A stretch of 64,000 nt of DNA. Source: Phoronis australis (Eukaryota > Animalia > Phoronida). The stretch covers positions 62,001-126,000 of the forward strand of contig NMRA01000725.1 of the NCBI GenBank assembly GCA_002633005.1. The letters run 5' to 3'. A program made the translations under genes and the position numbers. Under the pieces are notes generated by a model. It searched no databases. It worked only from the letters and a program-made list of their open reading frames with translations, and had not been told where the DNA came from. Positions 14,803-58,600 of the stretch are shown piece after piece; the stretch's first letter is position 1, and every line of letters starts with the position of its first letter.

Positions 14803-15640
14803 TAGCTAGTTGCACTTCCCAGAACACGACTGGTTGTAACAATTACTAGAAGGCAGTCGAGTCTCCCAAAAATATCCCGTTGCAGCTACGCCAATGTGGA
14901 CTGGTGGTACAGAATTTGACTTCTTTAAACGTCAAGGCTCCGACTTGTCAACGAGAATCATTTGGTCGTTCCAACATCCATATGTGGGCACGAACGATTA
15001 TTTCGACTTTGGAACTCTTCCACTGTTATGAACGTTGCTGTTGGGTATTGAATAACCTATATTTCCAAATGTTTTTTTGGTAATAATCACAAACTGTGAT
15101 TGTTCGTGTAACTTATATGTTGCCAGTAGACTCTCTAATTTCGTACTTACTCAGCGTAATGCATACTTACACTTAATTATAACCTTAAGCATCGATTTCT
15201 TAGAAAAATACCCAATGTTTGGTAAAGATGGCTTGACAATTTCACGTGCTTTTCCTAGTCTAGTATCCGTTTATTTATATCAAGTAGAGACAACACACCA
15301 CGGCAAAGTACTGAGAGTTTTGCTTATCTCAGAGCCTTTATATAATCCTTTCCAAACGGGTATTTTTGAAAAAGCATGACAGTGAGGAAAATGAATCATT
15401 TCTCCATCACAACAAAATCACAGTTTCGAATTTTTGCAATCCAAGAAAATGCCAGCAAATTTCAAAATCAATCATCGGACAAGTGAGTGAACTACATGAA
15501 CCAGTAAAACTGTGAATACATCTGCATTCAAAAGTAAAGCATAAATTCATTATGTTCACTCAAGCATTTCCAATAATGGCGTAGAGTCAAGTGTGTATCA
15601 CTTCTCCTAACGTGTTTATAGGTATGTTAAAGCCCTTTTT
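14803..15640. repeat. Interspersed repeat, diverged relative of 28968-29720 and 30376-30980
   Basis: Shared blocks e.g. CGACTTGTCAACGAGA, CCTAGTCTAGTATCC, AAAATGAATCATTTCTCCATCACAACA. Confidence 0.8.
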
Positions 15641-27761: not shown

Positions 27762-28090
27762 TTGAGTAAAAGCATTATTTGACAAAAATAGCTCACCTTT
27801 TCTTAAAAGGTCACGACCTCCGACCCCGGGCCTCTGACATAGAAAGTAGTTACAAAACCGAGGCGAGGCGAGAAAGGTAGATCGATACGTTGTAATGTTT
27901 CTCGCTCAGTATGTGGTATATAAATAGATAACTACATGTTCTCAGTCGTTATTCCCCTTATCTAGAGCCCCGTGGATTTTGCAGAATTATCACCCTCGGG
28001 GCTAACTCCCCTCGGGCGATAATTCTCCAAAATCCACTCGGGCGCTAGATAACGGGGGATAATGACTTCGCCATGTAATAGTCTATATTT
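27762..28090 (+). repeat. Interspersed hairpin-containing repeat, copy 1 (copy 2 at 62446-62765)
   Basis: About 320-bp direct match between copies; contains about 120-bp palindrome centred on GGGGCTAACTCCCC. Confidence 0.85.
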
Positions 28091-28880: not shown

Positions 28881-29100
28881 AGCTTTTAACGCCCGAAATT
28901 CAATTTTTGCCTACGTCATTTTAATAAGAATAAGTCATTTTAAATAGTAAGCTGTTAGTAACAACGTAGCTAGTGGAGATTCCCATTCACGACTGATTGT
29001 AACAATGGAAGCCAGTTGAGTCTCCAAAAAATTTCCGGTTGCAGCTAGCTCAATGTTTTCTGGTGGCACAAAATTTGGCTTCTTTATACTTCAACGCCCC

Positions 29101-34600: not shown

Positions 34601-37600
34601 CCACATTGCACGCCAGTGTCTCGTCATCAGAGTTCTTCTTGGATGAAGACATATCGTTGCAACACATGGTGTAGTACTTGGATGGGTCGACGACCTTGAA
34701 GCAAGGGCGGAGCGACGATGACTCTTCCTCAAAGAGCGCAGCACATGTGGAGTGAATTTTGCCGCTTCTCATGGGTGTATTGATATTGGCATTGTTCTGG
34801 TGTCTCCTACAACGTAACGCCCAGCTCCTGGTGAATTCTAGTGTGTTCTCTGCCTCACGGTTTTGCACCGTGGTGAAGTCGTTGCTGGGCTCGTTGTCAT
34901 ATGTGCCAAACAGACCAGCTGTTTTGCCGTAGTACCAACCTGTCACGTTGGTAGTGCAGACATCGTGCACGTTGTCGCATGTGACCGTCACACCATTAGT
35001 GTTGTGTACACGAATGGCGTTGCCAATGCGCATGATAGTAGTGTTACCGAACTGCACTGGCATGTCTGTCTTCTTGCCATTGAGGCGAACCTACAGGATG
35101 GAATGAAATTTCAAACAGCGTTGTTTCCTTGTCCACAGATGATATACAAGAGAAACTTTAGAAATGGTGGAACGTGGGACTCCGATCATCCAAGGATGTT
35201 TTGTCATATCATTGAAAAACTTGATCGTTGATAGAAGTTACTGAAAACAACGTATTGATAACACTCAAAAACATTTACACTTCATAAGTTATTCAAAATA
35301 AACTAGCCACCTTGAACACCTAAATATTATTTCACGACACTCACAGTGAAGTATGGCCGCAACTGTACTTCCTTGTCGTCGGTGAGAATGACCAGGGACT
35401 TGCCTCTCTTGGCGTGGTAGTTCACCAAGATAGTGAAGTTGCCATCAATGAAGTCATGGGCCAGGATATAGCTGCACGTTCCCTTAAACTCATAATGGCG
35501 ATGGTCGAAGGTGGTGATGTGCTGTCCAGCAATGGTGGCGTGAGCTGTTGATGTAACGACGAGATGAGGTTTGTTGAGCAGCTAATTGAGTTCGAGAATA
35601 ACATGAACAATACTCTTGCTCTTGAACTGTTCCACTTAAGAGTTGAAACGTTGTTGGTAAATTGGGAATTCGCACCACTGACTGGACTTTACTGTAGTAC
35701 AAAGGCGTGCTCAAAGTATTGGAATTATAAAACTGCTATACTGGGATTGCATTGAAAACTTCAAATTGTTACCATGAGTTGGGCGAGGAAATCTACACCA
35801 GCTCGCAATGCATAGAAACGCCATTGTCACGGTAAACTACATACCCTTGAATGGAGGGATCCAATTCATGTAGTCTCTGGTTGGCTTGTACTGGTACACG
35901 TAATCCATGACGGTGTTCTTGTCGAGGTACATCATGTCCATATTAGGCAGTCTCATTGTCTTCTTCAGCCTCGACGTCTCGACGAGAAAGTTTTCATACT
36001 TGGGCACCGTGACGAACGACTCCCAGGTGAAAGGAAGGCCAACCTCCATTTGGATTTCACCTTGTTTGGGGTTCCAGACGGTGAATCGGGTATCGTCGAA
36101 GCGTAGGTACTCATTGGCAACATCCCTGGCTGTATCCAAGACGTAGCCTTGAACGTCTTTGCAAAGGCTCACTGCAATATCTTGAGCGTGCCGCTCGAGC
36201 TCGTAGTTGTCATAAACCCACTTGCCCTGTAGGTATTGGACAAAGAGCGAACACAACAGTGACTGTCGTAGTGATCATAATACTTGAGAAGTGGCTCGGT
36301 CAAATAATGAAATAAACTGCTATTTGCAATATTGATCACAGCACGAAGTCAACAGTATTGCTCATCATTTTTTACTGTTAAGTTGTTTGAGTCGTGCAAA
36401 TTTGGGACAATCCTACTGATGGCTGAGACCACATTTAAGAATCAACGGCACAAAGTAAGCGTGATCTAAGTCAAAAACACATTCGCTTACAAGTTCGACA
36501 ACGATGATGACAGCCTTCCTCAGAGCTTGGGTATTCATCTTTTGCTGAGCCTTCTGGCGAACGTGGTTGTAGTAGCGTCTGTAGTCAATCTCTGGCATCT
36601 CAGGCAGATACTCTGCGTAGAGATGGTTCAAAATGGCGTGATATTTCTCCAGCAGCTGTTCAACCTTGGCCATGACCTCCTGGTAGTAAGCCGTGGAACG
36701 CAGCTTGGTCATCATATCCTGGAACTTGATATTGGTCTTCTGCATCAGCTTGATTATTTTTTCTGAAGCGATGTTGGGGTATTTCTTACAGGTAATGACA
36801 TAGGGCTTAAGAGCCACAGACGCTTTGATCAAGGCTTCATCCATCATCTCAGCTGCCTTCGCCTTCAGCACCTTAAAACAACAGTGGAAACAGTTCACGA
36901 AAAGCAAGGTTGGATGATGACAGTAGTTGGAGTGGCGGTTACGGCATTTTGAGAGTAAGAGATGGAACTAAAATATTTTCATTATACATACCTTTCAGTT
37001 ATACTGGATACAAATCTTACTATGTTTTAAAAGAAACTGTTCAGTATACTATCCATACAAATATACAAGAACAGAATTTCAGAACCATTTAACATTAGAC
37101 AGGCCTACTGGAAAAGGATAGAGTAAACAATTTTAAAATAAGAATAAGGAGATCTTTTAGTATTTCAAAAAATATTTAAAATCTCTGTATTCTTGGGACA
37201 TTACTTTAAGACACAAAACCTGTACACAGTTACAAGGATTGTGTATCAGGATAATTGAGTGCAGTAGACATACTCGCATAACTTCAGTCATCTGTTCATT
37301 CATTTCCTTGTACAATGTCTCATACAAGGCGACTAATTCCGTAGCCACGTCTTGATGATACTTCTCCAACCTGACTTGACAATGGGCAATGTAATTTCCA
37401 ATAAGTTTTTGCATTTGTCTCGGTATCCTGTGAAATCTTATTCTGAAATCAATTGTAAAGACTTTCACTATAACTTGTGGCGGAAATTGACTAAAAAATT
37501 GAAAATCCTGTAGTTGCACACCTTAAACTACTTTAAACTAAATCCAGAGGTTAGCATTCATCAGTTTTACAGTGCAAAAAACACTGATGCAAGTATCGTT

Positions 37601-40600
37601 ATCAATGTTATCACCATATTTGTATCATAACAGTGAAGTCAAATTTACTTACACGAAAAGACTGCGTTCATACACGACCAAATCGTGGACGTACGCGACA
37701 TAGTCGAGTATGTCGCGAGAGAAGAAGTCGTTGCGCCTGATCATGTGGAAAATCTCGCCAGAAAACTGATTGAAGTCGTCCTCCAAATCTCGCATCTCAC
37801 GGTCCATATCTAACTGTTTGGCGATCTTCTCCACGTCCACAGTGATCTGGTATTGCGTGCGGCGCATTTTTTCACTAGCTTCTTCGGCTACGACGGCGAA
37901 CATGCTTCCTTGGGAAAAGTATACTTTCTCATTCACGGCGTGGTAAGCATCCTGAAGTTAGGAAGTTATAATTACTGCTGCCATCGAAAATGTTTTAGTT
38001 GATATCGGTTTCCCAACCACATAATTATGGTACCGACAGTCTCAGAAAAGTTCTTGCCCAAATTTGTGTTCTAGAGCCAAATATGATGGCTAAAAATAGC
38101 GGAAAGTTTCCTTGATGAATTTCATTCAACATTAAGGCACAATGATTTATTTTACCTTTCGAGGCTAAAAAGAGACCAATTTCCACCACGGCTTCATCAG
38201 CGACAGATAAAAACAAATTTATCCTGTTCCATCCCTAACAGGAATAAATGAAATGGCAATTTGTCAAATCTATCATGACATGGGCTCAATTACCTCGATG
38301 TCAAAGAAAGCGGAAGGTCTCCAGTGTACACGAGTGTGCATCAGTCGACTGTTGTTGAGTCGAGCTGTGAACAGACCTTCAGTCACCTTGTTGCTGTTGT
38401 GTATGCGGTAGACTTCAGCAGTGACAGCAGAGTCATTGTTGAACTTGGCATAGGCATGCAACTGGTTCACTGGGTTTTCTGTATCAATTAGAAAAAGCAA
38501 ATGCAAGTTAAACACAAGCATCATCGTTCCCGTTACATTTACAAGTGAAATGGGTGTCATGGCCCCCTTGGCTCCCCTCAATGACGGCGTTCTGTCGTTC
38601 AGTAACTTTTCCAGACGTGAGGGGTTCTGAACGTGCAATAACATATGACCCCTTTGTTAACTGCCCAGCACATGTCCCGTATGACAAGAAGCACGCCAAT
38701 TATCTCCCAGGCTTCAACGGGTTACTGAAACCTGGCAGAATGGATTTTCTTAACTTCTGTTGCAGTTGGGCGATTTTGATGATTCAAAAACTAAACATGA
38801 TCAGCATTTGACAAGCAAATCGGAAATGCTATTGGTTTATGTTCAAATATACTATAACTTAACTTTCATTTTTAGCAGCACAACCCAGTCAGGCTAGATA
38901 CGATCTGATCGGAGATTAGAGCAATTTTCGAACAAAAGAGAGCCGGCTCTCCAACCATAAATGCCAGAATGGAGTGAATCAGTCGTGTAAGATATTGGGT
39001 ACAAGGGTGATCTTCCCAACTTTGTGTTGGGCTATAGAATCGTACAAGTTGAGAGCAACAGGAAAACGCCGTAATATCTCAATCCAGTGAAGATAGCATC
39101 ACATACTCCAAAAGAAGCTTCAAAAGTTCATATTGGATTAATACGTCGAATCCAGTTTAGAAGATTCATAGTTCATGTTACGTAAATAGATTCGATTAGA
39201 AGGTGATATAGCACTGCGTATCCCAAAAGAAGCTTTAAAAAATCCCTGCAACGCGATACCGAAGCTAGTTTACAATGAAACAACTCGAGTAGGAGAGATA
39301 AAAGGTTATATATATTATGACAAACTAGATTACTACAGATATCGATAAATACAAACGTTACATAATATGTTGAGCTTTAAAGGTGGGAGACAATCTGCCG
39401 GACAAACAGCACTATTGGATCAGGTACAAGGAAGCAATGAAGGTATACAGAAGTGTTGAACCAGAAAAATCAGTAACAATATGCGGAAGCAACGAAGCAA
39501 CACCAGGACAGCGACATGGGAAAATTAAGTAGAAATGAAAGGGAAAAAATTGGTTTGAGGGATGAAGGGAAATAGAAATTGACTGAAAACTCGAAACTAG
39601 AGGAGAATTATGGACGATGGCCCAGTGTTGCGACAAAGCACAGTGATCACGTCGTACAATTAAACCAATAATCATAGAACAAAGAGGGTCACTGACCCGA
39701 GAATCCAAACAATATGATAATGAGGACGAAGCAGTATAGCTTACATAAAATAATTCAATACTTAAAAAGTATTTATATGTGCTAAGTGCAAAGCGATACC
39801 GAAGCTAGTTTAGAGTGAAACAACACGACTAGGCGAGATAAAAGGTCATATATATTATGACAAACTAAACTACAACAGATATCGATAAATACAAAAGTTA
39901 TATAATATGTTGAGCTGTAAAGGTGGGTGAAATCTGCCACAAATGCAACAGAACGATGCATCCACCCACCCAAGGGAAAGCGAGCGACGCTGACAAAAGC
40001 AGCATTGAGTAAAAGGGGCCAAAAGTTAGTGACGAAAATAAGAACAATACTGCCCATGCACTGTCTAATCCATTATCCGGTAACAGCTAACAATTGCCAA
40101 TCTAATTCAAGTTTTTAAATCATGACCTGAAAGATGAAAAAGCCCAATACTCACCAGGATCATAGTTAACCTTCAGGTCAACCAGTCTCTTTTGCAGGTC
40201 AATGTCAAAGGATGATGAGAGAGTCTTTTCATTATAGGTGTTTCTCATCTCCATGTGTATGTTCTTGTACTTCTCTTTGGACAGATCTTTCATCTTAGCC
40301 CAGCTGTACCAATTTGACTGAGGAGTCAATACCTGAAATTTCAAAATCAATTACTTCGTTTTTTCCAAGCTCATGAAAGGCAATTTTCCTGATTAAGGTC
40401 TTACGCAAAACCATCCAATGAAAACGTCAAATTTCCAAAAGACTAAACGAATTTTTACCAACCCGAAGTTCAACTTCATTGCGGAGCTTGTTGATCTTAG
40501 TGTTGAGGAGGAATGACTTTCTCAGGTGAGACCTAGACATAGTGTACCCTATTCCAATGCCAGAAGTCCAGAATCTGTCAGAGGTACCAAGCTGGGTGGT

Positions 40601-43600
40601 GCCAGAAATGTCAAGAGAGGAAGCAGGATGCCTGATCTTTAGCGACATGGTATAGTTGGTGCCACTGAAACGAATAGCCTCTTTACGGATATTGGTGGAG
40701 ACGGCGATTTTCTTGCGATGGTCGCCGGAATATTTAATCTCAGTGTTGGTCCTGCAAATGGTGTTCGCTTCGCCAGTGTTCACCTCATTTTGGACAGTGA
40801 TATCGTGCCCCAGTTTGGGATGCTGGATAACTAGCTCTTGTTTCATAGTATTGCCAAAACGTTCATGCTTGCCCTTAAACTTGACTGTTTTGCTCTCATC
40901 TTTGTCAGCATTCCAGAAGAAGCTTGAATCCATCTCGTATGCGCGCCCGCTGATGGCGAACGAAACGGTGTGCTTAAACGATCGCCAAGGTGATACCAGC
41001 TTATTGGACATTTTCAAGTTATGCTGGTCTCTGATGATTGTCAGTTCGTGTGCGACCTTCTTCTCACGTTTAGGATCCCAACAATAGACAATGTTGTGCT
41101 GAATGAACTCTGAACAAAGGATAATTTTGTGCTCAAAGATTGCAGTGCGATATGGTGTGACCATTTTCAAAACTGTGTCTTGCTTGAACTGGCCTCCTTT
41201 ATCTTGATTGTTCACATCTAATGTGAAACGGACTCTGTTCATGCGATACCCCTTTCCCTCACTATAGATTGCCTCTGCAGCAACGTTGCCATCATCAAGT
41301 TTTCTCCAGAATTCAACTTTTCTTGTCAGAGGCTTAGTCATCTCAATAAAGACACTATCTTCATTCCCAATACTTTCAGAATTTACAGTGATATCAAGGA
41401 ATTCACCTCCATCACCGCCCCATCTGATTCTCGTGTTCGCTGAGCCATTCCACACACGGGTTTGGTCCACTTCCCAAAACATGTTCCAATCAGGATTGAC
41501 TGTGTTGCTGGCAATAACGTAGAACTTGGTATCGTTGCGTTTGTAGAGCTCGACTCTTTTCTGAAAGGTAGTTTGGATGCTCAGAGTCTTTCCATGGGCC
41601 CAAGTGAAATCTAACGAAGATTGGCACTCTTCACCCTTTCGATGATTCTTGAGGATTACCTGCAGGTTTTCGAACTTGTCGAACGGGATCTTCACTGTGA
41701 AATTTCCTTCCGATTCAACTCTCGATGCACTGTTCTTCACAGCAGCTGATACACTAATGGTCTTCCCACGTGCATAAGAAACTTCTCCAGTTGTCTCAAA
41801 TGCACAGAGATCACCATCGTGGTTAACCTCAGCGCTCAACTGTTCGAAATGCTTGAATGGGCTTGAGAAGTGGATGTTGGCCAGTAGGCGTGTCTTGGCC
41901 AGCCTGAATGTAGTTGAGGCACTAACGGTGTCCCGTGGAGAGTATTTGACTACAGCCCTGGTGGAGATTGATCTCCACGAATGTCCTTTGTGGACAACGT
42001 TGACTGAAATGTCCTTAAAATTTTTGAATGGCGTACTCACATTCAAAGATGCTATAATGTCTTTCTTTAAGTCAAAAGAAAAACCACACTCTAATTTACC
42101 ATTCGGAGCATAGATCACTTCGGCATGGGAACTGAAATTCTTCGGTTCGCCGCTGAGACTGAAAGATGCATCGATGCTTTGAAGGTTTTTAAATGGACTC
42201 TTGAAGTGCAGCTTGGCTACAAACTTTCCATTGAAGTTGACATCAGATCTGAAATGAAACCTCTTACCAGAAGTGTACTTGAAGGTTGCTCTTGTTTTGT
42301 AAACCCCGTCTTCATAATTTGTTGTAAGTAGGAATTTCTCGGATGGTGTCACGAGGCTCAGATGACCACTGAAACCATTGCTTATATTCAGACAGCCGTC
42401 GAGTGCAGCAATACTTCGTAGGTGGCGGCCAAAATTTGCGTTGATAGTCATTGATTGAGACTGAATATTGACTTTCGAGCTAATGTATTTGGCAAATGGA
42501 GTCTTCAGCATGAAATTGCCTGTTATGTTTTTGTTATTGTTGTCCTTTAAGTCTGCGGTCAAGACAATTGTCTTTCTATCAGAGAGCTGCACAGTGGAGT
42601 TAAGTTTGAAGTCGCGTTCACCGTTCTGATGATACAAGGAGAAGGCAACATCTTCAACTGGCTGAAATGGGGTCTTCAGAGCTACGTTGGCAGTGATGGT
42701 ACGTCGGTCACCTACAATGTGCTGTCCGTTAACAGTCAGGGTAATGTTTTCCATGTGGGGGGACTGTACGCTGAACTCAGAGTCAACCATGGAGTCGGTA
42801 GAACGATGTCTCCATTTGCAGTAAAAGTCAAGGGGGGCAAACCTGAAGAAGATCGGTAAAGGGACGGCGATGTCGAGCTTGCCGGTGTTGCTGATACGCC
42901 ATTTGCGAGCATGGTGTGTCATGTCAAACTTGAAGCCGGCTCGTTTACGTCCTTCTCTCCTATATGCCATGCCGGTTTCAAACTGCCGGAGATCGTCCTT
43001 ATGAGCAGCCGTCAGTGACACTTCATAAAATCCTTTGAAAGGTGTCTTGATTGTAATGGAACCGTCAAGATCTCTTGTGGACTTTCCTCGGTTCTGAAAG
43101 TTAATTGTAACGTTGACTTGGTCCCACTTGACCACAATTTCAGTGTTCAACATAGCTAAAGCACGATCGCTGTGTTTTAATGAAACGCAAATGTCTTTTA
43201 ATTCCTCCCACGGTGTCTCAAGGGTCACCTTGCCTCGAATATCGTGTCCATCCTGACTTCTGCCCTCACCGGTAAAGGAAACGGTGATGACTTCTTTTGG
43301 TTCCAGAGTTATTTCCAAGCTTGAGTTTATCTGTCGAGAATCGTGTATGTGTGTGAACTTCGCCGTGACATCTTTCACGTGCTTGTGTGGAGTTTTCAGG
43401 TTCACCTGGCCTTCGAAGCATGGACGACGTGGTGAGCTCTTGTCGGTACCGAAAACGGTGATTTTGTAGTCGACAGCGTCAACCTTGACCTGGGTATGTG
43501 CCTTAATAGATTTGGCTTCGATTTTGTGGTCCCATACAAATTTGAGAGTGTTCGCGTCATTGAATGGGGTGTTGACTATCAGGTGACATTGGAAGTTTGA

Positions 43601-46600
43601 TTTTGAAGAATATTGCACATCCAGGTTACCACCGACTTTCTTGTCCTTGACCCAGGCGAAAGAACCACCAACTGAATAGTTTGTGGCCCTTATTCCGTAC
43701 TTAAATTTCAGAGAGATGTCTTCAAGATTTTCGATGGTACTTGCCAGGCTTAGCTCACTGTTGACAAAAGGACCAGAAGAGTATTGCCTTATTTTGAATT
43801 CCCCAGTAACAGAGATCTTTTCGCGATTCCACTGAGCGGACACGGTGGACTTTTCACCCGAGTTAAAATCGAGGTCAAAATGGCCAACATGAATTGGGTG
43901 AATGAGTCGAAGATTAACGAGGTGCTTATAAGACGACCTGTTACTGTTATTCTTGTAGCTACCAGTGAGGGTTACATTCTTTCTCTCATCTCGTCCAGCA
44001 TCCCAATTCACGGACATCTGGCCGTGAACAGCTAAGGGGAAATCGCTACTAAGCTTGTAGTAGCTTTTAATTTGCCTTGTTGGAAAGACCAAGTCAAGTA
44101 TGCCAGACATTTCTTCACTGTTCATGTTCATCTTCGCTTCAGCCGAGTACACATTTCCCAGCAAGTTGGTGGAAAGGAGTACTTCCTTGCTTCTATTTTT
44201 GTTAACAAGACGAGCCTCAATAGAATACTCATCTCCTTNGCCAATTATCTCCCAGGCTTCAAAGGGTTACTGAAACCTGGCAGAATGGATTGTCTTAACT
44301 TCTGTTGAAGTTGTGCGATTTTGGTGATTCAAGACTAAACAGGATCAGCATTTGACAAGGAATTCAGAAATGCTATTGGTTTATGTTCAAATATACTATA
44401 ACTTAACTTTCATTTTTAGCAGCATAACCCAGTCAGGCTAGATACTATCTGATCGGAGATTAGAGCAATTATCGAGCAAAAGAGAGCCGACCCTCCAACC
44501 ATAAATGCCAGAATGGAGCGAATCAGTATTGTAAGATATTGGCTACAGGGGTGATCTTCCCAACTTGTTGTTGGGATATAGAATCGAACTAGTTGGGAGC
44601 AACGAGAAAACGCCGTAGTATCGAAATCCAGTGAAGATAGCATCTCATACTCCAAAACAAGCTTAAAAAGTTCATATTGGATTAATACGTCGAATCCAGT
44701 TTAGAAGATTCATAGTTCATGTTACGTAAATAGATTCGATTAGACGGTGATATAGCACTGCGTATTCCAAAAGAAGCTTTAAAAATTCCTGCTTAGCGAT
44801 ACCGAAGCTAGTTTACAGTGAAACAACACGAGTAGGTGAGATAAAAGGTCATAGATATTATAACAAACTAAACTACAAATCCAGTCATTCTGGGACTCAA
44901 GAGGGCCCAACCTAGAAAAAATTGCAACAGAAGATTTTTTTGCATGAATGGAATCTTCAAACATCCCTTGGTGCCAGAAAAAAGTTTACCGAAATCGGAG
45001 TGGAGGAAGTCGGTTTTTCAAGACGGCGGAAAAATGGCCGCCTAAGCCGGTATTTACTACTTTCTGGCATGTTACTCATATGTAAAAGCTGGAAATAAAA
45101 CAATAAAGTTCGTCACTGATTTTATACTGTTCGTAATAGGCATACTAATAAAAAATGCCAATTTTCCGTGAAAGAAAACCACTATGGCAGATAAAATGGC
45201 GGCCGAAACGGCAATTTGGTACATGCTGTAAGATTTCTTTTTATATTTTGCCCTGAAAATGGCCAAATTTTTATTCTTTTGTAAGTTAGACAGTTGAAAA
45301 TATCTGGACCTTACAATTTGTCATTGGTTGGAGAGAAAAAAATCAAGATGGCTGACAAAATGGCCACCAAAATGGCCACAATTAACGTTCCGCAAACTTC
45401 GTTTGTAACCTGATAGGCATTTACACAAAAACATTTTACAATCTACAGTCAGGGTTAATGACTCGATTGTTTCTATAATTTATTGTTCAGATTTAGATAC
45501 TAAGTGTGGAATTTTAATCACATTTTAGATTACATAACATAAAGTTTGGTGCGTTTTTCAGAAAAGGCTTTGGTTAAATTTTCGTAATAAATTTCACACA
45601 CTCAATTATTTTTCTGTAAAATATATTCATCAGGTATCAAAAATAATATTTCTTAGAAAACTACGAAATTCTGGTGCTGGCATGTGTTGAGAATTTGGCT
45701 GTTGATTTCGTCTGAATTTGATAAAAAGCAAATAAAATTGTGTAACAAAAAGTTGATAATTGAAGTTTAATATTTAGTACTCACAATTTGTTTAATGTGC
45801 ATGCTTTTTTTGAACAAAAGTAACTGATTTTAGAGGAAATTAGTGCCATCAAACAAAAGGCCAGTGGTCTGCAGTCACTTGTTCTTATCCAGGCTTGGCA
45901 GATTTCATACTGAGATGAGCTGTCTGGGATGTATTGGGTACGTAATGTCAGGCACAGGGCTTCAAGAAGTTCTTGAGATGGTGCATGCATCAAACAGTGT
46001 GATCCTTATGTGCCACTTCCAAATATTGACAGATCAAGTAACGTCAATCCAGAACCAATAAAGAAATTCCGGTTCTTCAGAAATCCCAAGAGTCCCGAAT
46101 GTCACCAACGCAGAACACACAGATTCCGTGCCAAGAGGTGGAGCAATTCAATGCTTGTACACCAATGTTGGCTCGTTAGAATATGGAGACAGACGTCCCA
46201 ACTGATCACATAACTAGATTTATACGCTGGGGCATGCAATGCACAGCCAGTGTCTTCCGATTCTGAACCTTGAATTACAGTGGAATACCCTCATGAGAGT
46301 TCACTTCTGGCTTCCGGCCTACTGCCACTGGTTTTCTAAAAAACGACTGAATCAGAGTACAGGTCTTCAGAATTCGCAGTGCCAGAGAATAGTTCGTCAG
46401 AAGAATCAATGGCCAATGATATTCTTCATGATGATTTGAGAGGTGGTCTGAAGCTGTATGGTGAACTTATTGATGGCATGACGACTGTGTGCGGCGATGT
46501 ATGCTCGTCTTGTAGGTATCCATAAAAATCGAAGCACATAAATTAGACTTGTCCTTGCAAAGTCGAATCATTAGTCTTTGGCTACAGTATATGAAGATGA

Positions 46601-49600
46601 TTGACATCCTTCGACATTTTTAAAAGCAGAAATAACGTCAGATTGGGGGCTTCACTTAAAAGCAGTTTCTGAAATGCTGCCTTACTTTGCAGCTGCTGGT
46701 CACATCCCTTATGCAAAATCTGCATACGTATACTTGCAGCACACGCAGCAACTCAAAGACACCCGTCCAGATATCATAAGACAAAGTGACAGATTTGGGG
46801 CAGGCTTGTCATATGATCTTGAACAAACGCTCATGAAATGCATTGAAGCACCAGGAGGTTTAATTAGAGGTTGCAAAATGGGAGATACGCAGAGTGCACC
46901 GTGGCTGCTTTCCTTGCAGGCATGCTCAAGTATAAATTGTGCCATGTAGACTGTGACAAACTTGAGTTGTGAAACATGTCAGCAACATAAAGAATGTACC
47001 CAGGCAAGACAGTCACGCGACGACAAAGACATCCGCAGCCTTGTTGAATTCCTCCACAACAGAGACCCATTTTAAAGAGAAACATTACAAAACATCGCCA
47101 TTGGTGTGACTGCAGGTACGCGCGTCAATGCCGAAAATGGCAGAGAAGTGGGGATGACAATTCGCTTGTCCATGGAGGGGTCAAGTGTGAAAGACTTCAC
47201 ATTCAGAAAGAAAGACAAGGTTGTGGCAATGACAAGTCAATCACTTCATGTTGCTAATAGTGATTTTACACAAGTGGATCAACGACTGCTACTGCAGCGA
47301 ATCCTGACAGCTGCAAAAACAATAGTGAAAGTTCCTGAAGACTTTTGAAGTTTGACTGTTGCTGGTTCCACTGCTCTTTTTGATACAACGGGTCTTCCCA
47401 GAGTCTCTAATAAATAAATATTAGTTGATGCAATCTGGTCCAGCGGAGGACTACCTTAGGATTTCAGTTTCCACAAAACACGGTGATGCACGTAATCGAC
47501 GGCGGTTCTCTCCTTCACTGTATTCCATGGCCTAGAGATGCAACGTTTCAGTCGATTGCACCCAGACTACTGTTGTTTTTTATGGTTATGGAGGTGGCCC
47601 ATCAACTAAAGATGTCTTCCATGTTTGAGGACTGGGTGGGGTGGTTGGAACTGAAGTTCACTTCAATGGTGACATGGTGATCAAGTCAAGGAAGGAACAT
47701 TTTTGGCAAAGAGCAAAAACAAACAATGATTCATTCACTTCTTGTCAAGTTTGCTAGGAAATACTGATTGCACAGTGGTACCAAGTCAAGGTGACGCAGA
47801 TGTTTTAATTGTAGAAACAGCAGTAGAGAACGCAGCATAACGTCCAACTACCCTTATTGTAGACGATACAGACTTGTTGGTTCTTTTGTGTTACCATGCT
47901 ACTTCACAACAATTTCCAATGTTCAAGAAATTTGACAAGAGCCACCAAAGCAAGAGGAGAGTGTGGGACATCAAGAAACAACAGTTGTCTCTTGGAGCCG
48001 AAACTTGCGCAGTTTTGCCATTTGTACATGCAATAGGTGGCTGCAATACAACAATACGGCTGTTCGGTATTAGCTCTCCCATTCAAGAAACTGCATGATT
48101 GAGAATTTTGCGAATACGCCAGAGTATTCACTAGACCCATGCAGCTGAAGCAACACATATTTGAAGCTGGTAAGAGTTGTGTCTATGCTTTATGGCGGTA
48201 GTGGCTCTAAAAATTGGATGACTTGCGGTGCAGGCGATTTGTAGATGAGGTGCCAGACTAGCCCCAGTCCAAATACAATCATTACCACCAACTTTTTTCA
48301 GTAGCTAAAGTCCATCAATTAAGAACACGAGTGGTAAAGTTTCCGTGGCAGTGGCCTGGACTCACTGTAGTGGGGACAGATGCTGGCAGGTGGAATATTC
48401 ATTCCCACGACGACAGACTAGTCAGCAGCACCAGAGAACCTGCTGAAAGTAGTAAGATGCTCGTGTAATACCAACTGTAGTTCCAAGAGATGTTCTTGCA
48501 AGAAATTAGGATTGCCGTGCTCTGTTACATGTAGAGAATGCCGTGGCTTAAGCTGCTACAATTCATTCCCAGTTGACAGAGATTAGTTGTGTAAATACTG
48601 GTTGATTGTGTATAGATTTTGACCACAGACTGAGAATGACTGCTTCAGACAGACTTGTAACATCACTAAGAGAAGCCTAGTGGGAGCTGTACAAGCACTT
48701 ATATTATAAACTGTTTAACTTTCTAAACACACAATTGTAAACCTTTCTCCTGTCTCAACTGTTGCTGTATTCACTAGCATCTACAACTAACTGGAGATGA
48801 CACAGACGGTGTGCATAGTAGATCACAATCGCAGAAAGTTATTTTCGATACAGCACCTTTTTCAGGAGGAGAATGAACCTTAAGTCCAGGCGAACCTGAT
48901 GTTCTTCACCCAAATAAGTTATCGTTAAACAACCTTGAAAATGGTAGTCGTAATCATCACAGTCAGACAAAAATTATTGTAATGGTCGTGCAGACCTAAG
49001 AAACGCAGGATATGAAATGTGTGAAGATGGCGTGTCTCTGGAATCTGAAGTTCTTACATGAAGCAACTATGTGGTAGCTATCTTAGAAAATGGTGGAAGT
49101 AATCCTTAGAGCCAAATGCAATTAGTCTCAATGGATTAGTCGACCAAGAAAACTTATGAAGCGATGTTTGAAGCAAGGCGACGTACTAATCTGTTCACGC
49201 GAAGTTGTGCGACTCGAAATAGTTTTGGAGGCCATCTTGGAAAACGGCTGATGGTGTCACCACAGCCATGCAAAACTATTTCCAATAAATTTTTTGACCC
49301 ACAAAAGATAGGTAAACCTTTTTGAATTTTTACTCTATCACATTCCACTCTCGAGTTATAATGGTCATCTGCAAATCTGGGGGCCATTTTGTCCGCCATC
49401 TTGCAAATGGTGGAAATAATAATTAGAGCCAAATGCAATGAGTCCCAATGGATAAGTTGACCCAGAAAACCTATGATGCAGTGTTTGAAGCAAGACGACA
49501 CACTAATCTGTTCGCGCAAAGTTGTACGACTCGAAGTAGTTTTGGCGGACATCTTGGAAAATGGTGGACGGTGTCACAACAACCATGCAAAACTATTTCC

Positions 49601-52600
49601 AATGGATTTGTTGACCCATGAAAGATGGGTAAACCTTTTTGAATTTTTACTCTATCACATGACACTCTTGAGTTATAATGGTCATCTGCAATGCGGCTGG
49701 CGGCCATTTCGTCCGCCATCTTGAAAAACCAACTTCTGCCACTCCGATTCCGGTAGACTTTTTTCTCACACTAAGGGGTGTGAGAGAATACGATTTATGC
49801 AATAAAACCTTCAGTTGCATTTTTTCCGCGTCATCCGTAGAAGGACTGGACTATACTACAGATATCGATAAATACAAAAGTTACCTAATATGTTGAGCTG
49901 TAAGGGTGGGTGACAATCTGCTGTACAAACAACATTATTGGAGGTACAAGGAAGCAATAAAGTTATACAGAAGTGTTGAACCAGAAAGAAAAGTAACAAT
50001 ATGCGGAAGCAACAAAGCAACACCAGGACAGCGACATGGGAAAATTAAGTGTAAACAGGGAAGGAAAAATGGTTTGAGAGAGGAAGGGAAATAGAAATTG
50101 ACTGAAAACTCGAAACTAGAAGAGAATTATGGACGATGGCCAGTGTTGCGCCAAGACAAAGAGATCACGTGGTACAATTAAACCAATAATCGTTGAACAG
50201 AGAGGGTCACTGACACGAGAATCCAAACAATATGATAATGAGGACGAAGCAGTAGAGCTTACATAAAATAATTTAATACTGAAATAGTATTTATATGCGC
50301 TAACTGCAAAGCGATACCGAAGCTAGTTTACAGTGAAACAACACGAGTAGGTGAGATAAAAGGTCATATATATTATAACAAGCTAAACTACTACAGATAT
50401 CGATAAATACAAAAGTTATATAATATGCTGAGCTGTAAAGGTGGGTCAAATCTGCCACAGACGCAGCAGAACGATGCAAGGGAGAGCGAGCGAGGCTGAC
50501 AAAAGTAGCATGATTAAAAGGGGCCAAAAGTTAGTGACGAAAATAAGAAAAATACTGCCCATGCACTGTCTAATCCATTATCCGGTAACAACTAACAATT
50601 GCCAATCTATTTCAAGTTTTTAAATCACGACCTGAAAGTTGAAAGAGACCAATACTCACCAAGATCATAGTTAATCTTCAGGTCAACCAGTCTCTTTTGC
50701 AGGTCAATGTCAAAGGATGATGAGACAGTCTTATGATTATAGGTGTTTCTCATCTCCATGTGTATGTTCTTGTACTTTTTGTTGGACAGATCTTTCATCT
50801 TAGCCCAGTTGTACCAATTTGCCCGAGGACTCAATATCTGAAATTTCAAAAACAATGGCTTGGTTTTTTCCAAGCTCATGAAAGGCAATTTTCGTGATTA
50901 AGGTCGTACACAAAATCTTCCAATGAAAATGTCAAATTTCCAAAAGGCTGAACGAATTTTTACCAACCTGAAGTTCAACTTCATTGCGGAGCTTGTTGAT
51001 CTTAGTGTTGAGGAGGAATGACTTTCTCAGGTGAGACCTAGACATGGAGTACCATATTCCAATGCCAGCAGTCCAGAATCTGTCAGAGTTACCAAGCTGT
51101 GTGGTGCCAGAAATGTCAAGAGAGGAGGCAGGATGCCTGATCTCTAGCAACATGGTATAGTTGGTGCCACTGAAACGAATGGCCTCTTTACGGATATTGG
51201 TGGAGACTGTGAATTTCTTTTGATGGTCGCCGGAGTATTTAATCTCAGTGTTGGTCCTACAGATGGAGTTCGCTTCGCCAGTGTTCACCTCATTTTGGAT
51301 AGTGATATCGTGCCTCAGTTTGGGATGCCTGATACCTAGCTCTTGTTTTATGGTATTGCCAAAACGTTCGTGTTTGCCCTTAAGCTTGACTTTTTTGCTC
51401 TCATCTTTGTCAGCATTCCAGAAGAAGATTGAATCCATCTCGTATACGCGCCCTCTGACGGTGAACGAGGCGGTGTGCTTAAGCGATCGCCAAGGTGATA
51501 TCAGCTTATTAGACATTTCCCAGTTATGCCGGCCTCTGATGATTGTCAGTTCGTGTGCAACCTGCTTTTCACGTTTAGGGTCCCAACAATAAACAGTGTT
51601 GTGCTGAATGAGCTCTGAAGAAAGGACAATTTTGTGCTCAAAGATTGCAGTGCGATATGGTGTGAGCATTTTCAAAACTGTGTCATGCGTGAACTGGCCT
51701 TCTTTATCTTGATTCTTAACATCTAATGTGAAACGGAATCTCTTCATGCGATATCCCTTTCCCTCACTATAGATTGCTTCTGCAGCAACGTTGCCAACAT
51801 CAATCTTTCTCCAGAATTCAACTTTTCTTGTCAGAGGCTTAGTCATCTCAATGAAGCCACGATCTTCATTTCCAATACTTTCGGAGTTCACAGTGACATC
51901 ATGGAATATACGTCCATCACCGCCCCATCTGATTCTGGTGTTGGCTGAGCCATTCCACACACGGGTTTGGTCCATTTTCCAAAACATATTCCAAGTAGGA
52001 TTGACTGTGTTGTTGCCAAAAACGTAGAACTTGGTATCGTTGCGTTTGTAGAGCTCGACTCTTTTTTGAAAGGTAGTTTGGATGCTCACAGTCTTTCCAT
52101 GGGCCCAAGTGAAATCAAACGAAGATTGGTACTGTTCACCCTTTCGATGGTTCCTGAGGATTACCTGCAGGTTTTCGAACTTGTCAAACGGGGTTTTTAG
52201 TGTGAAATTTCCTTCCGATTCAACTCTCGATTCACTGTTCTTCACAGCAGCTGATACACTAATGGTCTTCCCATGTGCATAAGAAACTTCCCCAGTTGTC
52301 TCAAATGCAGAGAGACCGCCATTGTGGTTAACTTCAGCGCTCAACTGTTCGAAATACTTGAATGGGCTTGAGAACTTAATGTTGGCCAGTAGGCTTGTCT
52401 TGGCCAGCCTGAATGTAGTTGAGACACTGATGGTGTTCCGTGGAGAGTACTTGACTACAGCCATGGTGGAGATTGATCTCCACGAAAATCCCTTGTGGAC
52501 AACGTTGACTGAAATGTCTTCAAAGTTTTTGAATGGCGTACTCATATTCAAAGATGCTAAAATGTCTTTTTTTATGTCAAAAGAAACACCACACCCTAAC

Positions 52601-55600
52601 TTACCATTCGGAGCATAGATCACTTCGGCATGGGAACTGAAATTCTTCGGTTCGCCGCTGTAACTGAAAGATACCTCGATACTTTCAAAGTTTTCAAATG
52701 GACTCTTGAAGCGCAGGTTCGCTACAAACTTTCCATTGAAGTTGACATCAGATCTCAGGTAAAGCCGCCTACCAGAAGCGTACTTGAAAGTTGCTCTTGT
52801 ACTGTAAATACCGTCTTCATGGTTTGCTGTCAGTAGGAATTTCTCGGATGGTGTCATGAGGCTCAGATGACCATTGAAACCATTGCTTATATTTAGAGAG
52901 CCGTCGAGTGCAGCAATACTTAGTAGGTGGGGGCCAAAATTTGCGTTGATAGTCATTGATTGAGACTGAATATTGACTTTCGAGCTAAAGTATTCGGCAA
53001 ATGGAGTCTTCAGCATGAAATTGCTTGTTATGTTTTTGTTGTTTTCCTGTAAGTCTGCGGTCAAGACAATTGTCTTTCTATCAGAGAGCTGCACAGTGGA
53101 GTTAAGTTTGAAGTCGCGTTCACCGTTCTGATGATACAAGGAGAAGGCAACATCTTCAACTGGCTGAAATGGGGTCTTCAGAGCTACGTTGGCAGTGATG
53201 GTACGTCGGTCACCTACAATGTGCTGTCCGTTAACAGTCAGGGTAATGTTTTCCATGTGGGGGGACTGTACGCTGAACTCAGAGTCAACCATGGAGTCGG
53301 TAGAACGATGTCTCCATTTGCAGTAAAAGTCAAGGGGGGCAAACCTGAAGAAGATCGGTAAAGGGACGGCGATGTCGAGCTTGCCGGTGTTGCTGATACG
53401 CCATTTGCGAGCATGGTGTGTCATGTCAAACTTGAAGCCGGCTCGTTTACGTCCTTCTCTCCTATATGCCATGCCGGTTTCAAACTGCCGGAGATCGTCC
53501 TTATGAGCAGCCGTCAGTGACACTTCATAAAATCCTTTGAAAGGTGTCTTGATTGTAATGGAACCGTCAAGATCTCTTGTGGACTTTCCTCGGTTCTGAA
53601 AGTTAATTGTAACGTTGACTTGGTCCCACTTGACCACAATTTCAGTGTTCAACATAGCTAAAGCACGATCGCTGTGTTTTAATGAAACGCAAATGTCTTT
53701 TAATTCCTTCCACGGTGTCTCAAGGGTCACCTTGCCTCGAATATCGTGTCCATCCTGACTTCTGCCCTCACCGGTAAAGGAAACGGTGATGACTTCTTTT
53801 GGTTCCAGAGTTATTTCCAAGCTTGAGTTTATCTGTCGAGAATCGTGTATGTGTGTGAACTTCGCCGTGACATCTTTCACGTGCTTGTGTGGAGTTTTCA
53901 GGTTCACCTGGCCTTCGAAGCATGGACGACGTGGTGAGCTCTTGTCGGTACCGAAAACGGTGATTTTGTAGTCGACAGCGTCAACCTTGACCTGGGTATG
54001 TGCCTTAATAGATTTGGCTTCGATTTTGTGGCCCCATACAAATTTGAGAGTGTTCGCGTCATTGAATGGGGTGTTGACTATCAGGTGACATTGGATGTTT
54101 GATTTTGAAGAATATTGCACATCCAGGTTACCACCGACTTTCTTGTCCTTGACCCAGGCGAAAGAACCACCAACTGAATAGTTTGTGGCCCTTATTCCGT
54201 ACTTAAATTTCAGAGAGATGTCTTCAAGATTTTCGATGGTACTTGCCAGGCTTAGCTCACTGTTGACAAAAGGACCAGAAGAGTATTGCCTTATTTTGAA
54301 TTCCCCAGTAACAGAGATCTTTTCGCGATTCCACTGAGCGGACACGGTGGACTTTTCACCCGAGTTAAAATCGAGGTCAAAATGGCCAACATGAATTGGG
54401 TGAATGAGTCGAAGATTAACGAGGTGCTTATAAGACGACCTGTTACTGTTATTCTTGTAGCTACCAGTGAGGGTTACATTCTTTCTCTCATCTCGTCCAG
54501 CATCCCAATTCACGGACATCTGGCCGTGAACAGCTAAGGGGAAATCGCTACTAAGCTTGTAGTAGCTTTTAATTTGCCTTGTTGGAAAGACCAAGTCAAG
54601 TATGCCAGACATTTCTTCACTGTTCATGTTCATCTTCGCTTCAGCCGAGTACACATTTCCCAGCAAGTTGGTGGAAAGGAGTACTTCCTTGCTTCTATTT
54701 TTGTTAACAAGACGAGCCTCAATAGAATACTCATCTCCTTGGACATTGAGAGAGACAGTAGTTGTGACTACACGAGGGTTGAAGGTGTATAGGTCAACAA
54801 TGGAATACCTCTTTCCAGGTAGTTTGAGTTTACTGGTGGCTGAACATCCCTCGGGCTGCTTCATCAGTTTGAATTGGGTAGAATAGGCCTTGTCGCGGAG
54901 TTGGGCTGAGGTTGAGGCATCAAAATCCTTCCAGCCTAGTGTGGCGGTTCCATTTATGGAAATCTGTTCCTCGTTTGCCATCTGAACACTCGTGGAGAAA
55001 GTGTGTTTCCCCACCTGGGGCTGACAGTACCTCGTTTGCATGACGAAATTGTTGCCCTGGTGGTCAAGTGTCAAGTCGTTAGTGAAAGCATTGGTGGTAG
55101 TTTGTTCAAACTTGTCATAAAAGCTGAGCCTGAGCGTGTCAGCTTCCAGGTTGCCGTTGGCTGTGAACTTCTTCAGTCGATGAGAGCTCTCATCCTTCAA
55201 GTAAAAGCTGCTGTTCAATTTCTTATTGTTCCAGTGTCCAATGAATTTCATCTCATGGTCCATCAGGGTCTCGACGTTGTACGACATGTCGTAGGTAGTG
55301 AGCAGGTCCTAAAATAACGAAAATTAGATATTGTTATGTAGTACTAAAAGAATTTGGTGTGTTCTTGGAAAACATGTTTTCACTGGCGATATTTGGAAAT
55401 GTCTGCTTTCATGGTGTCAAAATGTTTGAGAGGAAAGAAAAACAAACGTAGGTTATCCAGTTCTAGTTCAGCCAATGTCCCCTCCCCCTCAAAACACAGC
55501 AAACATAAGAACAAACATTCGTGGCCCCAAAATTACTACAACCAATGCTTGCTCTTTTAAGGTAACAGTTTATTGACTTTGCTTCAAATTATTGTCTATT

Positions 55601-58600
55601 TAGGTGACGAAACTTCGAACTCAAACTCCCAAGAAGAATAAGAAGTGCCAACTGAATCAAGCTGACATTGCAAATTTCAAACTCGAAGTAACCAACTCAG
55701 TGGGAATAAATCGTGCTAAAGCCTTCAATAAACTACATTCTGCCTATGACGTTATCGCGTGTTGTTAGGAACAATGGGTTCCACCCACGAGCATGAGCCA
55801 AAACAATGCAAAGCTGGCGCTTTTACAAAATGGTAAAAACAGCAAAGTGAAACCCTACCAAGCCTGGAAACTTCAGTTGGCTCCTAGACTCCAGTTTCAT
55901 TGGCAACTGAGTGCCAAAGTCGGTGTCGTGCGAAATGAAGATATTTTTTCTCTTGTCCCTGAAGTCCTCACCGTAGTTCAAGTCAATCTCAAAATCGACG
56001 TGCTTTTTGTTGAAGTTCAACTCCACGGCCAGCTGGTGATTGTAGTCTGTGTAGGCGTCGCTGCTCACCAGGCTTTTACAAAAAGAGAGAACAGTTATAG
56101 ATATAGCTGAAAATAAAAAATCCATTGGTTCCAATTTGCTTAGAAACAATTGTCCTCAAGGTACATGTAAGACAATATTTGTAAATTGAGAGAGACATCT
56201 TCGTACTTTAAGACATCATGAATGGTATCCGCGTTTCGCCCTTGCTATTATCTTGCCAAAATCAAAGGCAAAATCTCACAGTATTGAAACCACGATTTTA
56301 TAAGGTGAAACATTTTAAACCAAATACATGAGAATATTAAACAATGTCAACTGTTCGGCTTTTTATTAAAAAATACGGTTTAGACCCATCAACAGATATT
56401 AAGGACGACATTTCCCATCCAGGTTTGTGATACAAAATATTGTTCTGAAAAACTCGTCAGCTCTCAAAAGTATGGATTAAGCTTGAAAACAAAGCCTGTA
56501 AAACCAACAAACGTGACTAACACTTTAAGCGAGTTACAAGATACATGTGTGGAATGACTACAAACCAGAAACCAGGGGACCCAGCTTATGGCATGGAACA
56601 AATGGTTTAGTTGAATTCTAGTTTTTCAGTCAATTGTATTACCAAAGGGCAGAAACACATTTGATGAAATTACCAAAACAGGGTTTGGTATTGTATAAAC
56701 CCTCATTCCATCCAAGCAGCGAGCTTTAGATTTTGACGTCTTACTACAATAAAATAAATCTTAAATGTTTCCTTTCACAGAGTTTCTACAGTGATTTCTG
56801 GTCTCCAAACAAACCTGACAGTTCGTTATTCGTTAACTTGCTTTATTAATTACAAAGCAGATAAGCCTGTAATATCGCGTTTGTCGAACTTATCAACTTC
56901 AAACCAGGGCCCGATCTCTAATTTTTTTACTCGAAATGGAACTCGAAATTATGGTTGGTATTTTTCTACTCTACTTTTGTAGGAACTCAAAATATGTGTC
57001 TATCATTCTATGCTCGAGTACATAATGACTTACGAGAATAGATAGTTTGCAGTTGAGAAGTCAACATTAAGGCTAAAAGTTCGAGTTTGAACTCGAAATT
57101 TCGAATTTTGCTCGAGTTAGTAGCACGAATATAAAGGTCTTCAAGTGCAAACTTGGACTAGAAATTCATAGGCATAAACTACATGTATAATGTAATCGAG
57201 CACAGTCTGATAACCACTTATCTCGAGTTCGCACAAAAGGAGCAGAGAAATTGTAAAAAATATTCGAGATCGATTGGGTACAAAGATTAGAGACCGGGCC
57301 CAGGTGTATTCTTTTGATAAATAATTTCAATCGGTCTACTTTGATGGAGACTCACGTGTTGAGAGAATATGATCCCGGCTTTAGATTCCTGATTTTCTCG
57401 CTAAAGACGAAGCTTTTCTTGGGTTTGCCAGCACTGTTGTACTCGATCTCAATACGAGTGGCTATAGCCTTGCCCTTGAAGTTGAGTAGACCCGAGACCT
57501 TGGAGTCAAACAGTTCGCTGCGCAGCTGCACAGATCCAATCAACTTTTTCTGGCTGGAGCTTATAGACTGTTCAAGATTCACTGTTTGAAAATTAAAAAA
57601 GACATGTTGAAAACTGTAACCTGCAGCCTGGATGCGCAAAACAAGAATTCACAGGGGCTGTGTAGTTGTCAAAGTTTTATGTTGAACCAAGCTAAAGTTC
57701 ATCCTGTTCTCAATTTCATTAGTATTACTTTACAATACATGTATTCAGGCTTCGTGTCTGCTAATATATGCATGACTTAAAAGTGAGAATTCACGTATCG
57801 CACCACCGTGGTATACTGGCTCCCATTTCATTATTAGATATGAATGAAACATGCAACCTGGTTGTCATTGAAATTTCGAATCTGCCGTGCTAACCTTTGA
57901 ACATGACGGGTACTTTGAACATCTTGTTGAGTGTGAGATCGCCAGAGTATTTCTTGTTTTTCTGGTACTTCACGGAGCCAGACAGTGTGATTGGCTTACG
58001 TTCTGGAATGCGCACCTCAAGGTTGGGCGTGTACGTGAACACTTTGTTCTCCTGATCTGTCCGCAGCTGGGCTGAGAAGTAGTACTCTTTCTCTTCATCC
58101 ACTATCATGGTGAGAGTGGCACGCTTCAGGTCGTCGCGGATTGTGTAGGCACCTGCAGAAAGGGAGAAAACATTGTAAAAGTTCTAACAGAATTGACCGT
58201 TCATAAAAAAACAAGAGGCGTGCAGAAGCGATGCATCTGAGATGGACGAGACCTAGATCTTTAAATGCATCAACTTGCTACAGATGTCTTTAAAACAACA
58301 AATAAAAATCAAAACAGAACAAATGTTTTTGATCAAATTCTTAGTTTAATACAAGAATTTTGGTGTATTCTTATAACTTTTTCGCAAAATGCCATGTCCT
58401 GGAATTGGTGGGTAAAACATTCAGAGCATGTTCCCTCGCTAACAAACAAGACTCACCGTTCAAATTGACCTGCTTCCAGGGTGAGACAAACTCAAGCTTT
58501 GATGACCAATCAGCCGTGTTCAACTCGTACTCGACGGCGATGTTGCGATCAATGCTGGATCCTGGGGTGTTGAAACCCATGCTGGTCATGTACTTCATGT

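What the first reader, a model, noticed from the sequence alone, without database searches (positions are those of the whole stretch)
40155..54740. Two open-frame versions of the giant lipoprotein exon with an abrupt identical-to-hyperdivergent switch
Seen: copies are near-identical from 42548-44238 vs 53050-54740 (3 amino-acid differences in about 560 codons), then differ at roughly 110 of about 695 residues (manual count, about 16%) plus one in-frame codon indel, with no stops and intact splice sites, including the next 178-nt exon. Inference: far above the few percent seen in the other duplications here. Options are ancient balanced alleles with a recombination breakpoint, two paralogs partly homogenised by gene conversion or collapsed by the assembler, or a real alternative exon-pair cassette. 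Many changes are radical, suggesting diversifying selection on a lipid/yolk carrier.
Basis: partly seen in the sequence, partly recalled or inferred. Interest (0 to 1): 0.8.

Follow-up and report, generated by a model that had tools for sequence, protein, structure and literature searches.

The report
Two alleles assembled as a duplication
The two side-by-side versions of this giant lipid-carrier exon are most likely the two parental alleles of one apolipophorin-type gene, placed in tandem by the genome assembler; both are transcribed and differ by 8% of bases, with no sign of selection for new amino acids, so this is likely an ordinary assembly artefact over an unusually old allele pair.

Summary
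The repeat is larger than stated: A=38695-44238, single N, B=44240-54740. B also holds a 5-kb transposon remnant, and A stops mid-exon without an acceptor. In DNA contigs of one sample, A and B each carry about half depth (24.4, 18.4) of the shared part (39) and upstream flank (46-49). Contigs break exactly at the switch (53050) but run unbroken past 54740 into upstream exons. The tandem layout is therefore likely a false heterotype duplication, not an exon cassette. Introns and exon differ equally (8.1% vs 8.2%); dN/dS is 0.78, radical changes are depleted and stops absent: weak purifying, not diversifying, selection. What remains real: two intact, transcribed versions 3-5 times more divergent than local background, seen in 4 of 5 samples. 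That, and the lack of a depth baseline outside the gene, leaves collapsed paralogs open (about 14%). A third, far more expressed paralog exists elsewhere. Five look-ups found no earlier scan note of this.

The parts
38695..44238 (-). Copy A (likely haplotype 1): intron, 178-nt exon, 130-nt intron and the 3' part of the giant exon, cut off at the N
   Evidence: A-type contig at depth 24.4 in X1
44239..44239 (.). Single-N scaffold joint between the two copies
   Evidence: copy A's frame runs into it without an acceptor
44240..54740 (-). Copy B (likely haplotype 2), collinear with A apart from the insertion
   Evidence: B-type contig at depth 18.4 in X1 and 3.7-4.9 in X2
40463..42547 (-). Divergent part of giant exon, version A (695 codons; 172 of 2082 bases differ from B)
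50968..53049 (-). Divergent part of giant exon, version B (694 codons)
42548..44238 (-). Near-identical overhang of A (matches 53050-54740; 3 differences)
50968..55308 (-). Complete giant exon (4,341 nt, phase 0-0): beta-rich linker with a TPF-type motif recurring about every 55 residues; no Pfam hit
   Evidence: donor position read from a spliced joint of the paralog and from frame
40155..40332 (-). 178-nt exon, version A
50660..50837 (-). 178-nt exon, version B
44877..49853 (.). Decayed multicopy DNA-transposon remnant present only in B; 3-bp direct repeat (TAC) at both ends and once at the empty site in A (39331-39333); inverted ends
   Evidence: summed depth 3,400-8,800 vs 39 in X1; no Pfam hit below E 0.04 in 5 frame fragments
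55859..64000 (-). Single-copy upstream exons: Vitellogenin_N, open beta-sheet (with an RKRR dibasic site), DUF1081
   Evidence: splices seen
33054..38521 (-). Single-copy downstream exons: helical region, VWD, C8 and tail

Best explanation
Copies A and B are likely the two alleles of one apolipophorin-type lipid-transfer gene in a heterozygous diploid invertebrate, which the assembler likely failed to merge and joined in tandem with a single N. Shown: each version has about half the depth of the shared and upstream sequence; the shared sequence has one continuation upstream; both versions are open and transcribed. Inferred: the left contig followed allele A and ran 1.7 kb into sequence common to both; the right contig followed allele B with its 5-kb insertion. 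The 8% difference reflects an old split of this block of at least 3.85 kb. The sharp edge likely marks a recombination or conversion event that gave both chromosomes the same 5' part. The repeat linker tolerates conservative substitutions, so amino-acid differences built up at close to the neutral rate while stops, frameshifts and radical changes were removed. One gene makes one protein per allele, each with a single giant exon; by family, it is predicted to be a secreted lipid carrier.
For:: X1 bubble at 52244-52630 has B at 18.4 (0 other letters) and A at 24.4 (31 other letters, exactly the A/B count); shared contig 39; upstream contigs 49.4 and 46.3. X1's 3,895-nt contig starts at the real branch 53050 and runs to 56944 with no break at 54740. 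X2's 4,227-nt contig is A-type over 52721-53049 (28 differences plus the 3-nt gap) and runs to 56944 at 7.89, with B pieces at 3.7-4.9. X3 also crosses 54740. Three of four N sites in the window are flanked by such repeats. Homologs P0004 and P0011 are collinear with one copy of the exon. This meets two of the four criteria in Ko et al. 2022 directly (PMC9516828, passages). Selection: dN/dS 0.78; 0 stops vs 5.6 expected (P=0.003); radical changes depleted. Long contigs of other transposon copies sit at 26.4 and 47.5 (X1) and 6.7 and 7.1 (X2), which fits a diploid depth near 40-48 and 7-8 (indirect).
Against: Both versions appear in all 4 samples that had any reads (S1-S4; S5 had none), as fixed paralogs would give; single outbred animals would all be A/B with chance of about 1 in 8 or less for the three non-ascertained samples, and whether they are pools is unknown. 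Read counts in X5 and X6 are 1-3 per site, and X6 shows A and B letters at different sites only. No depth was measured at an unrelated locus. 8.2% is 3-5 times the other local values (1.4-2.6%). DNA runs are contigs, not reads, and only 24 of about 15,450 pieces and 15 of 289 joints were displayed. X1 and X2 are one sample, possibly the assembly's source.
Confidence: 0.72

Rival explanations
1. A and B belong to two complete paralogous genes whose 5' part (53050 upward) and 3' part are nearly identical through recent conversion or unequal crossing-over, and were collapsed by the assembler.
For: Both versions in 4 of 4 samples with reads. The family does have paralogs here: a third, more distant and highly expressed copy. 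Uniform 8% divergence and an old B-only insertion suit separate loci. Half depth relative to the 5' part is predicted by this model too.
Against: Needs four chromosomal copies identical to 4 bases in 3,895, across two introns. Contigs of unrelated repeat copies mostly sit at the A+B depth, not at half of it (indirect). Other gap-flanking repeats in the window show the same pattern at 1.6-2.6%.
Confidence: 0.14
2. They are alleles, but two ancient haplotype classes kept by balancing selection or brought in from a sister species, with functionally different linkers.
For: Exact or near-exact A and B recur in a second sample that differs from the first at 17 of 1248 bases in the shared part, so both classes are common. 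Divergence is 3-5 times local background; dN/dS of 0.78 is high; both frames intact.
Against: No excess of non-synonymous or radical change and no clustering (variance/mean 0.57 over 15 windows). The gene is weakly expressed beside its paralog in the samples seen. Allele pairs 2-11% apart are reported in a barnacle (PMC8270832, passages), and 4.39% mean SNP rate with a geometric local spread in lancelet (PMC4284660, passages), although there with low dN/dS. Assemblers split exactly the most divergent tail, so this locus is a selected extreme.
Confidence: 0.12
3. A real tandem, mutually exclusive exon-pair cassette on one chromosome, as assembled.
For: Both versions are open, have donors and the 178-nt exon, and are transcribed.
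Against: Each version has half, not full, flank depth; the shared part is not doubled; contigs from three runs cross 54740 with no branch. A has no acceptor and abuts an N.
Confidence: 0.02

Closest known systems
False heterotype duplication (Ko et al. 2022, PMC9516828; passages read)
   Same: Half depth on each copy, assembly gap between the copies on one scaffold, located at a boundary of heterozygous and homozygous sequence, appears as a false exon gain.
   Different: Allelic divergence of 8.2% is far above the 0.2-1% heterozygosity of the vertebrates in that study; read-pair discordance could not be examined here.
APO family of large lipid transfer proteins: apolipophorin II/I, apolipocrustacein, apoB (Avarre et al. 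2007, PMC1783640; passages read)
   Same: Vitellogenin_N, DUF1081 and C-terminal VWD in order, plus an RX(R/K)R site in the N-terminal module.
   Different: Carries a long beta-repeat linker with at most 33% identity to any of 150 listed relatives; nearest named hits are uncharacterised mollusc and nemertean proteins; yolk versus lipid-transport role not tested.
Hyper-divergent haplotypes of Heligmosomoides (PMC10682056; passages read) and Caenorhabditis (10.1101/2020.07.23.218420; search listing only)
   Same: Punctate block of high allelic divergence next to near-homozygous sequence, shared between samples.
   Different: Only kilobases known, still fully alignable, same gene content, lipid carrier rather than host-interaction gene; no evidence of sharing between species.
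High allelic polymorphism of marine invertebrates: Balanus improvisus (PMC8270832) and lancelet (PMC4284660); passages read
   Same: Alleles several percent apart that assemblers separate onto different contigs.
   Different: There amino-acid change is strongly suppressed (dN/dS 0.04-0.11 for the barnacle OctA gene); here it is 0.78 in a fast-evolving linker.

Membership tests
False heterotype duplication | Half read depth on each copy | tested here: met
   24.4 and 18.4 vs 39-49 in X1; 3.7-4.9 vs 7.89 in X2; relative to the gene's own 5' part only
False heterotype duplication | Gap between the copies on the same scaffold | tested here: met
   Single N at 44239
False heterotype duplication | Discordant or spanning read pairs | not testable with these tools
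   DNA runs are held as contigs only; contigs cross 54740 unbroken
False heterotype duplication | One-copy (haploid-peak) k-mers against the genome-wide peak | tested here: inconclusive
   No genome held; baseline only indirect from other repeat copies
APO family of large lipid transfer proteins | N-terminal Vitellogenin_N / LLT module | tested here: met
   PF01347 E 6e-17 and PF09172 E 2e-28
APO family of large lipid transfer proteins | DUF1081 domain | tested here: met
   PF06448 E 1.6e-12
APO family of large lipid transfer proteins | C-terminal VWD (absent in apoB by recall) | tested here: met
   PF00094 E 6.7e-08 and C8 E 2.2e-07
APO family of large lipid transfer proteins | RX(R/K)R cleavage site between motifs N19 and N20 | tested here: inconclusive
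   RKRR present in the open beta-sheet exon; motifs N19/N20 not mapped, cleavage not shown
APO family of large lipid transfer proteins | Phylogenetic grouping with apoLp/apoCr/apoB | not tested
   No tree built
Mutually exclusive exon cassette | Both copies in cis at full depth | tested here: not met
   Half depth each; no branch at 54740
Mutually exclusive exon cassette | Each copy has its own acceptor and donor | tested here: not met
   A ends at the N, 568 bases short of the acceptor
Diversifying selection | dN/dS above 1 or clustered radical change | tested here: not met
   0.78, interval about 0.56 to above 1.05; radical changes depleted; no clustering. A two-sequence test cannot exclude a few selected sites
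Balanced hyper-divergent haplotype | Divergence well above background | tested here: inconclusive
   8.2% vs 1.4-2.6% from three local comparisons; no genome-wide distribution
Balanced hyper-divergent haplotype | Both classes at intermediate frequency or shared with a sister species | not testable with these tools
   Both classes in 4 of 5 samples, nature of samples unknown; no close relative in databases
AcademX transposon (for the B-only insertion) | 3-4 bp target-site duplication | tested here: met
   TAC at both ends and once at the empty site; length rule from PMC10045372 passage
AcademX transposon (for the B-only insertion) | Transposase with XPG-like nuclease and Cys-rich finger | tested here: inconclusive
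   Resemblance is recalled; Pfam found no such domain in 5 decayed fragments

The most novel reading that the evidence does not exclude
An invertebrate apolipophorin-type gene carries an ancient two-allele polymorphism: two intact, expressed linkers 16% apart in amino acids, common in the population, held together by a hemizygous 5-kb transposon that limits recombination, and maintained by balancing selection or introgression. This would be a balanced protein dimorphism in a lipid carrier, testable with one diagnostic PCR.
Probability: 0.12. Interest if true: 0.5.

Novelty: new member of a known kind. Interest (0 to 1): 0.2.

Why it matters
Mainly as a caution: an annotation of this scaffold would give a false duplicated or alternative exon, and other repeats beside N in this assembly should be checked for depth first. 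The residual biology is modest: a deeply split allele pair (or cryptic paralog pair) in a fast-evolving lipoprotein linker, with easy markers for a population test. If balancing selection were shown, it would extend hyper-divergent haplotypes to a lipid-transport gene.

Tried and rejected
No whole genome is held, so no search for B's continuation or the paralog. No RNA holder was listed by the index (no evidence either way); RNA came from added runs. X7 held only 7 reads, all paralog-like. Nei-Gojobori dN/dS of 0.56 (0.41-0.78) was set aside because transitions outnumber transversions 107:66; the codon model gives 0.78-0.80. Single-sequence fold had pLDDT 34.7 and was not used or searched. No close protein relative to polarise A against B: none at near length, best 21-33% among 150 listed of 152. 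Atlas hits were unnamed clusters and one with LOC400499 in 17% of members, a lead only. Conserved columns differ somewhat less between A and B (5 of 66 vs 103 of 627, P=0.07): not significant. The N at 25098 has no flanking repeat. Earlier scan notes: none relevant. Literature: a search for vitellogenin with divergent haplotypes and balancing selection returned 6 papers, the 5 listed all on C. elegans; one search gave 2 unrelated papers. The species was not identified, so no species-specific search was made; supplements were not read.
Full report
Observation. Self-alignment shows that the repeat is A=38695-44238, a single N at 44239, and B=44240-54740; B aligns to A in two pieces (44240-44876 and 49854-54740) around an insertion. 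The last 1,691 bases of each differ at 3 sites, and everything 3' of 42548/53050 on the gene's (minus) strand differs at about 8%. In protein terms: 3 of 563 codons, then 109 of 694 plus one in-frame codon indel, and 11 of 59 in the 178-nt exon. Copy A, however, ends at the N, 568 bases before the acceptor that B's exon has at 55308. Introns differ as much as the exon (127/1571 vs 185/2260, P=0.95). Two other gaps are flanked by similar repeats, at 2.6% and 1.6%; the N at 25098 is not.

The gene. Exons on the minus strand give Vitellogenin_N, the open beta-sheet, DUF1081, then the giant exon (no Pfam hit), then VWD and C8. Two full-length homologs align collinearly, with one giant-exon region. 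DUF1081 with this architecture marks the APO family of large lipid transfer proteins (PMC1783640, passages). The giant exon is a beta-rich repeat linker with at most 33% identity to the 150 relatives listed; the nearest named hits are from a clam and a nemertean. A lipid-carrier role follows from family only.

Test of the layout. Four runs were laid on 44240-60000, which holds one copy. In DNA run X1 the stretch 52244-52630 is covered by two contigs: B exactly, depth 18.4, and one with 31 other letters, depth 24.4; A differs from B at exactly 31 sites there. So contigs in this run break at a true branch, yet do not break at 54740, where a real tandem junction would branch. In X2 (same sample) a contig is A-type over 52721-53049 and runs to 56944 at 7.89, with B pieces at 3.7-4.9. 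A tandem cassette predicts full depth on each version, double depth on the shared part and a branch at 54740; none is seen. Half depth plus a gap between copies are two of four hallmarks of false heterotype duplication (PMC9516828, passages). Limits: these are contigs, only 24 pieces and 15 joints of many were displayed, and X1/X2 may be the assembly's own sample.

Expression and other samples. On 40940-42540, X3 (labelled DNA? but spliced, so treated as RNA) has A contigs at 4.8-14.7 and B-type contigs at 15.8-24.6 over the same sites. All 40 displayed other letters (of 155 rows) equal B's letter, although five of these rows are dominated by paralog reads. X5 has both types at one site (2 of 3 reads B). 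X6 has B letters at 41470-41695 and A letters at 42251-42284. X7 has none. Depth is 1-4 reads. A third, more distant version reaches about 1,000 reads in X5 and 5,310 in X3 where it aligns: a separate, much more expressed paralog (inferred). That both versions occur in 4 of 4 covered samples is the main result against the allele reading; it is expected of paralogs, and of alleles only if samples are pools or both alleles are common. X3 differs from the window at 17 of 1248 bases in the shared part, against 3 of 1691 between A and B (P=1e-4), so the near-identity in the window is lower than ordinary polymorphism, as a recent recombination or conversion would give (inferred).

Alleles or collapsed paralogs. 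I have no depth from an unrelated locus. Indirectly, the long contigs of other transposon copies lie at 26.4 and 47.5 in X1 and 6.7 and 7.1 in X2, which fits a diploid level equal to A+B. The paralog model also needs four copies identical to 4 bases in 3,895 across two introns. I put alleles at about 84% (72% ordinary old alleles, 12% balanced or introgressed), collapsed paralogs at 14%, cassette at 2%.

Selection. A codon model gives dN/dS 0.78 (F3x4) or 0.80 (equal frequencies), not different from 1 (P=0.16-0.18), interval about 0.56 to above 1.05; the simpler count gave 0.56. Against 3,000 neutral simulations, the number of changed residues is unremarkable (120 vs 124), but changes are more conservative (31% vs 46% negative BLOSUM62; hydrophobic-polar swaps 23% vs 34%, P=0.003) and stops are absent (0 vs 5.6, P=0.003). 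Differences are evenly spread. Both versions are thus kept as working proteins under weak constraint; there is no sign of diversifying selection, though two sequences cannot exclude a few selected sites.

The insertion. B alone carries 4,977 bp (44877-49853) with inverted ends and a 3-bp direct repeat found once at A's empty site. It is multicopy, and the longest other copies differ by 11-14%, so it is old, in keeping with a long separate history of B. A 3-4 bp duplication fits AcademX (PMC10045372, passage); the protein resemblance is recalled and Pfam did not confirm it. That it dampens recombination is speculation: divergence shows no gradient around it.

Comparison and verdict. The layout works like, and meets the testable criteria of, a false heterotype duplication. 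Allele pairs this far apart are within ranges reported for marine invertebrates (PMC8270832; PMC4284660; passages), though usually with far lower dN/dS. It resembles hyper-divergent haplotypes (PMC10682056, passages), but balancing selection was not testable. Verdict: the tandem arrangement is an assembly artefact; the two versions and the sharp switch are real, most likely as alleles. Interest 0.2.

Noticed in passing
RNA reads aligning patchily to window 40940-42540 and 50552-60000: A more distant paralog of this gene (mostly under 90% alike) is expressed several hundred times more strongly than A or B in X3, X5 and X6; likely the main lipid or yolk carrier. It is not in the window.
   Followed up: partly
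window 44877-49853: Decayed 5-kb DNA transposon in B only, with 3-bp target duplication, internal inverted repeat at 49077-49727 and a Cys-rich fragment near 48425-48571; AcademX-like by recall. RNA reads show a 153-nt skip at 48615-48769 in other copies.
   Followed up: partly
window 4136-8953 and 29101-31271: Two more gap-flanking repeats (2.6% and 1.6% different), probably false allelic duplications too; depth not tested.
   Followed up: partly
window 40463-55308: The giant exon encodes a repeat of about 55 residues with a TPF-type motif, shared with 3,000-7,000-residue animal proteins with variable repeat number (152 hits); it has no Pfam family.
   Followed up: partly
window 41688 and 42274: A-like RNA reads in X5 and X6 carry B's letter at single sites (1 and 2 reads), hinting at further haplotypes or exchange between A and B.
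   Followed up: no
window 418-2501: Broken non-LTR retrotransposon-like frames (endonuclease PF03372).
   Followed up: no
window 44240-44765 and 56864-57389: Very high-copy short repeats (summed depth above 100,000 in X1 vs 39).
   Followed up: no
window 14793-15598 vs 28957-29687; 27749-28090 vs 62435-62765: Dispersed repeats at 79-88% identity with no clear coding frame in the first.
   Followed up: no
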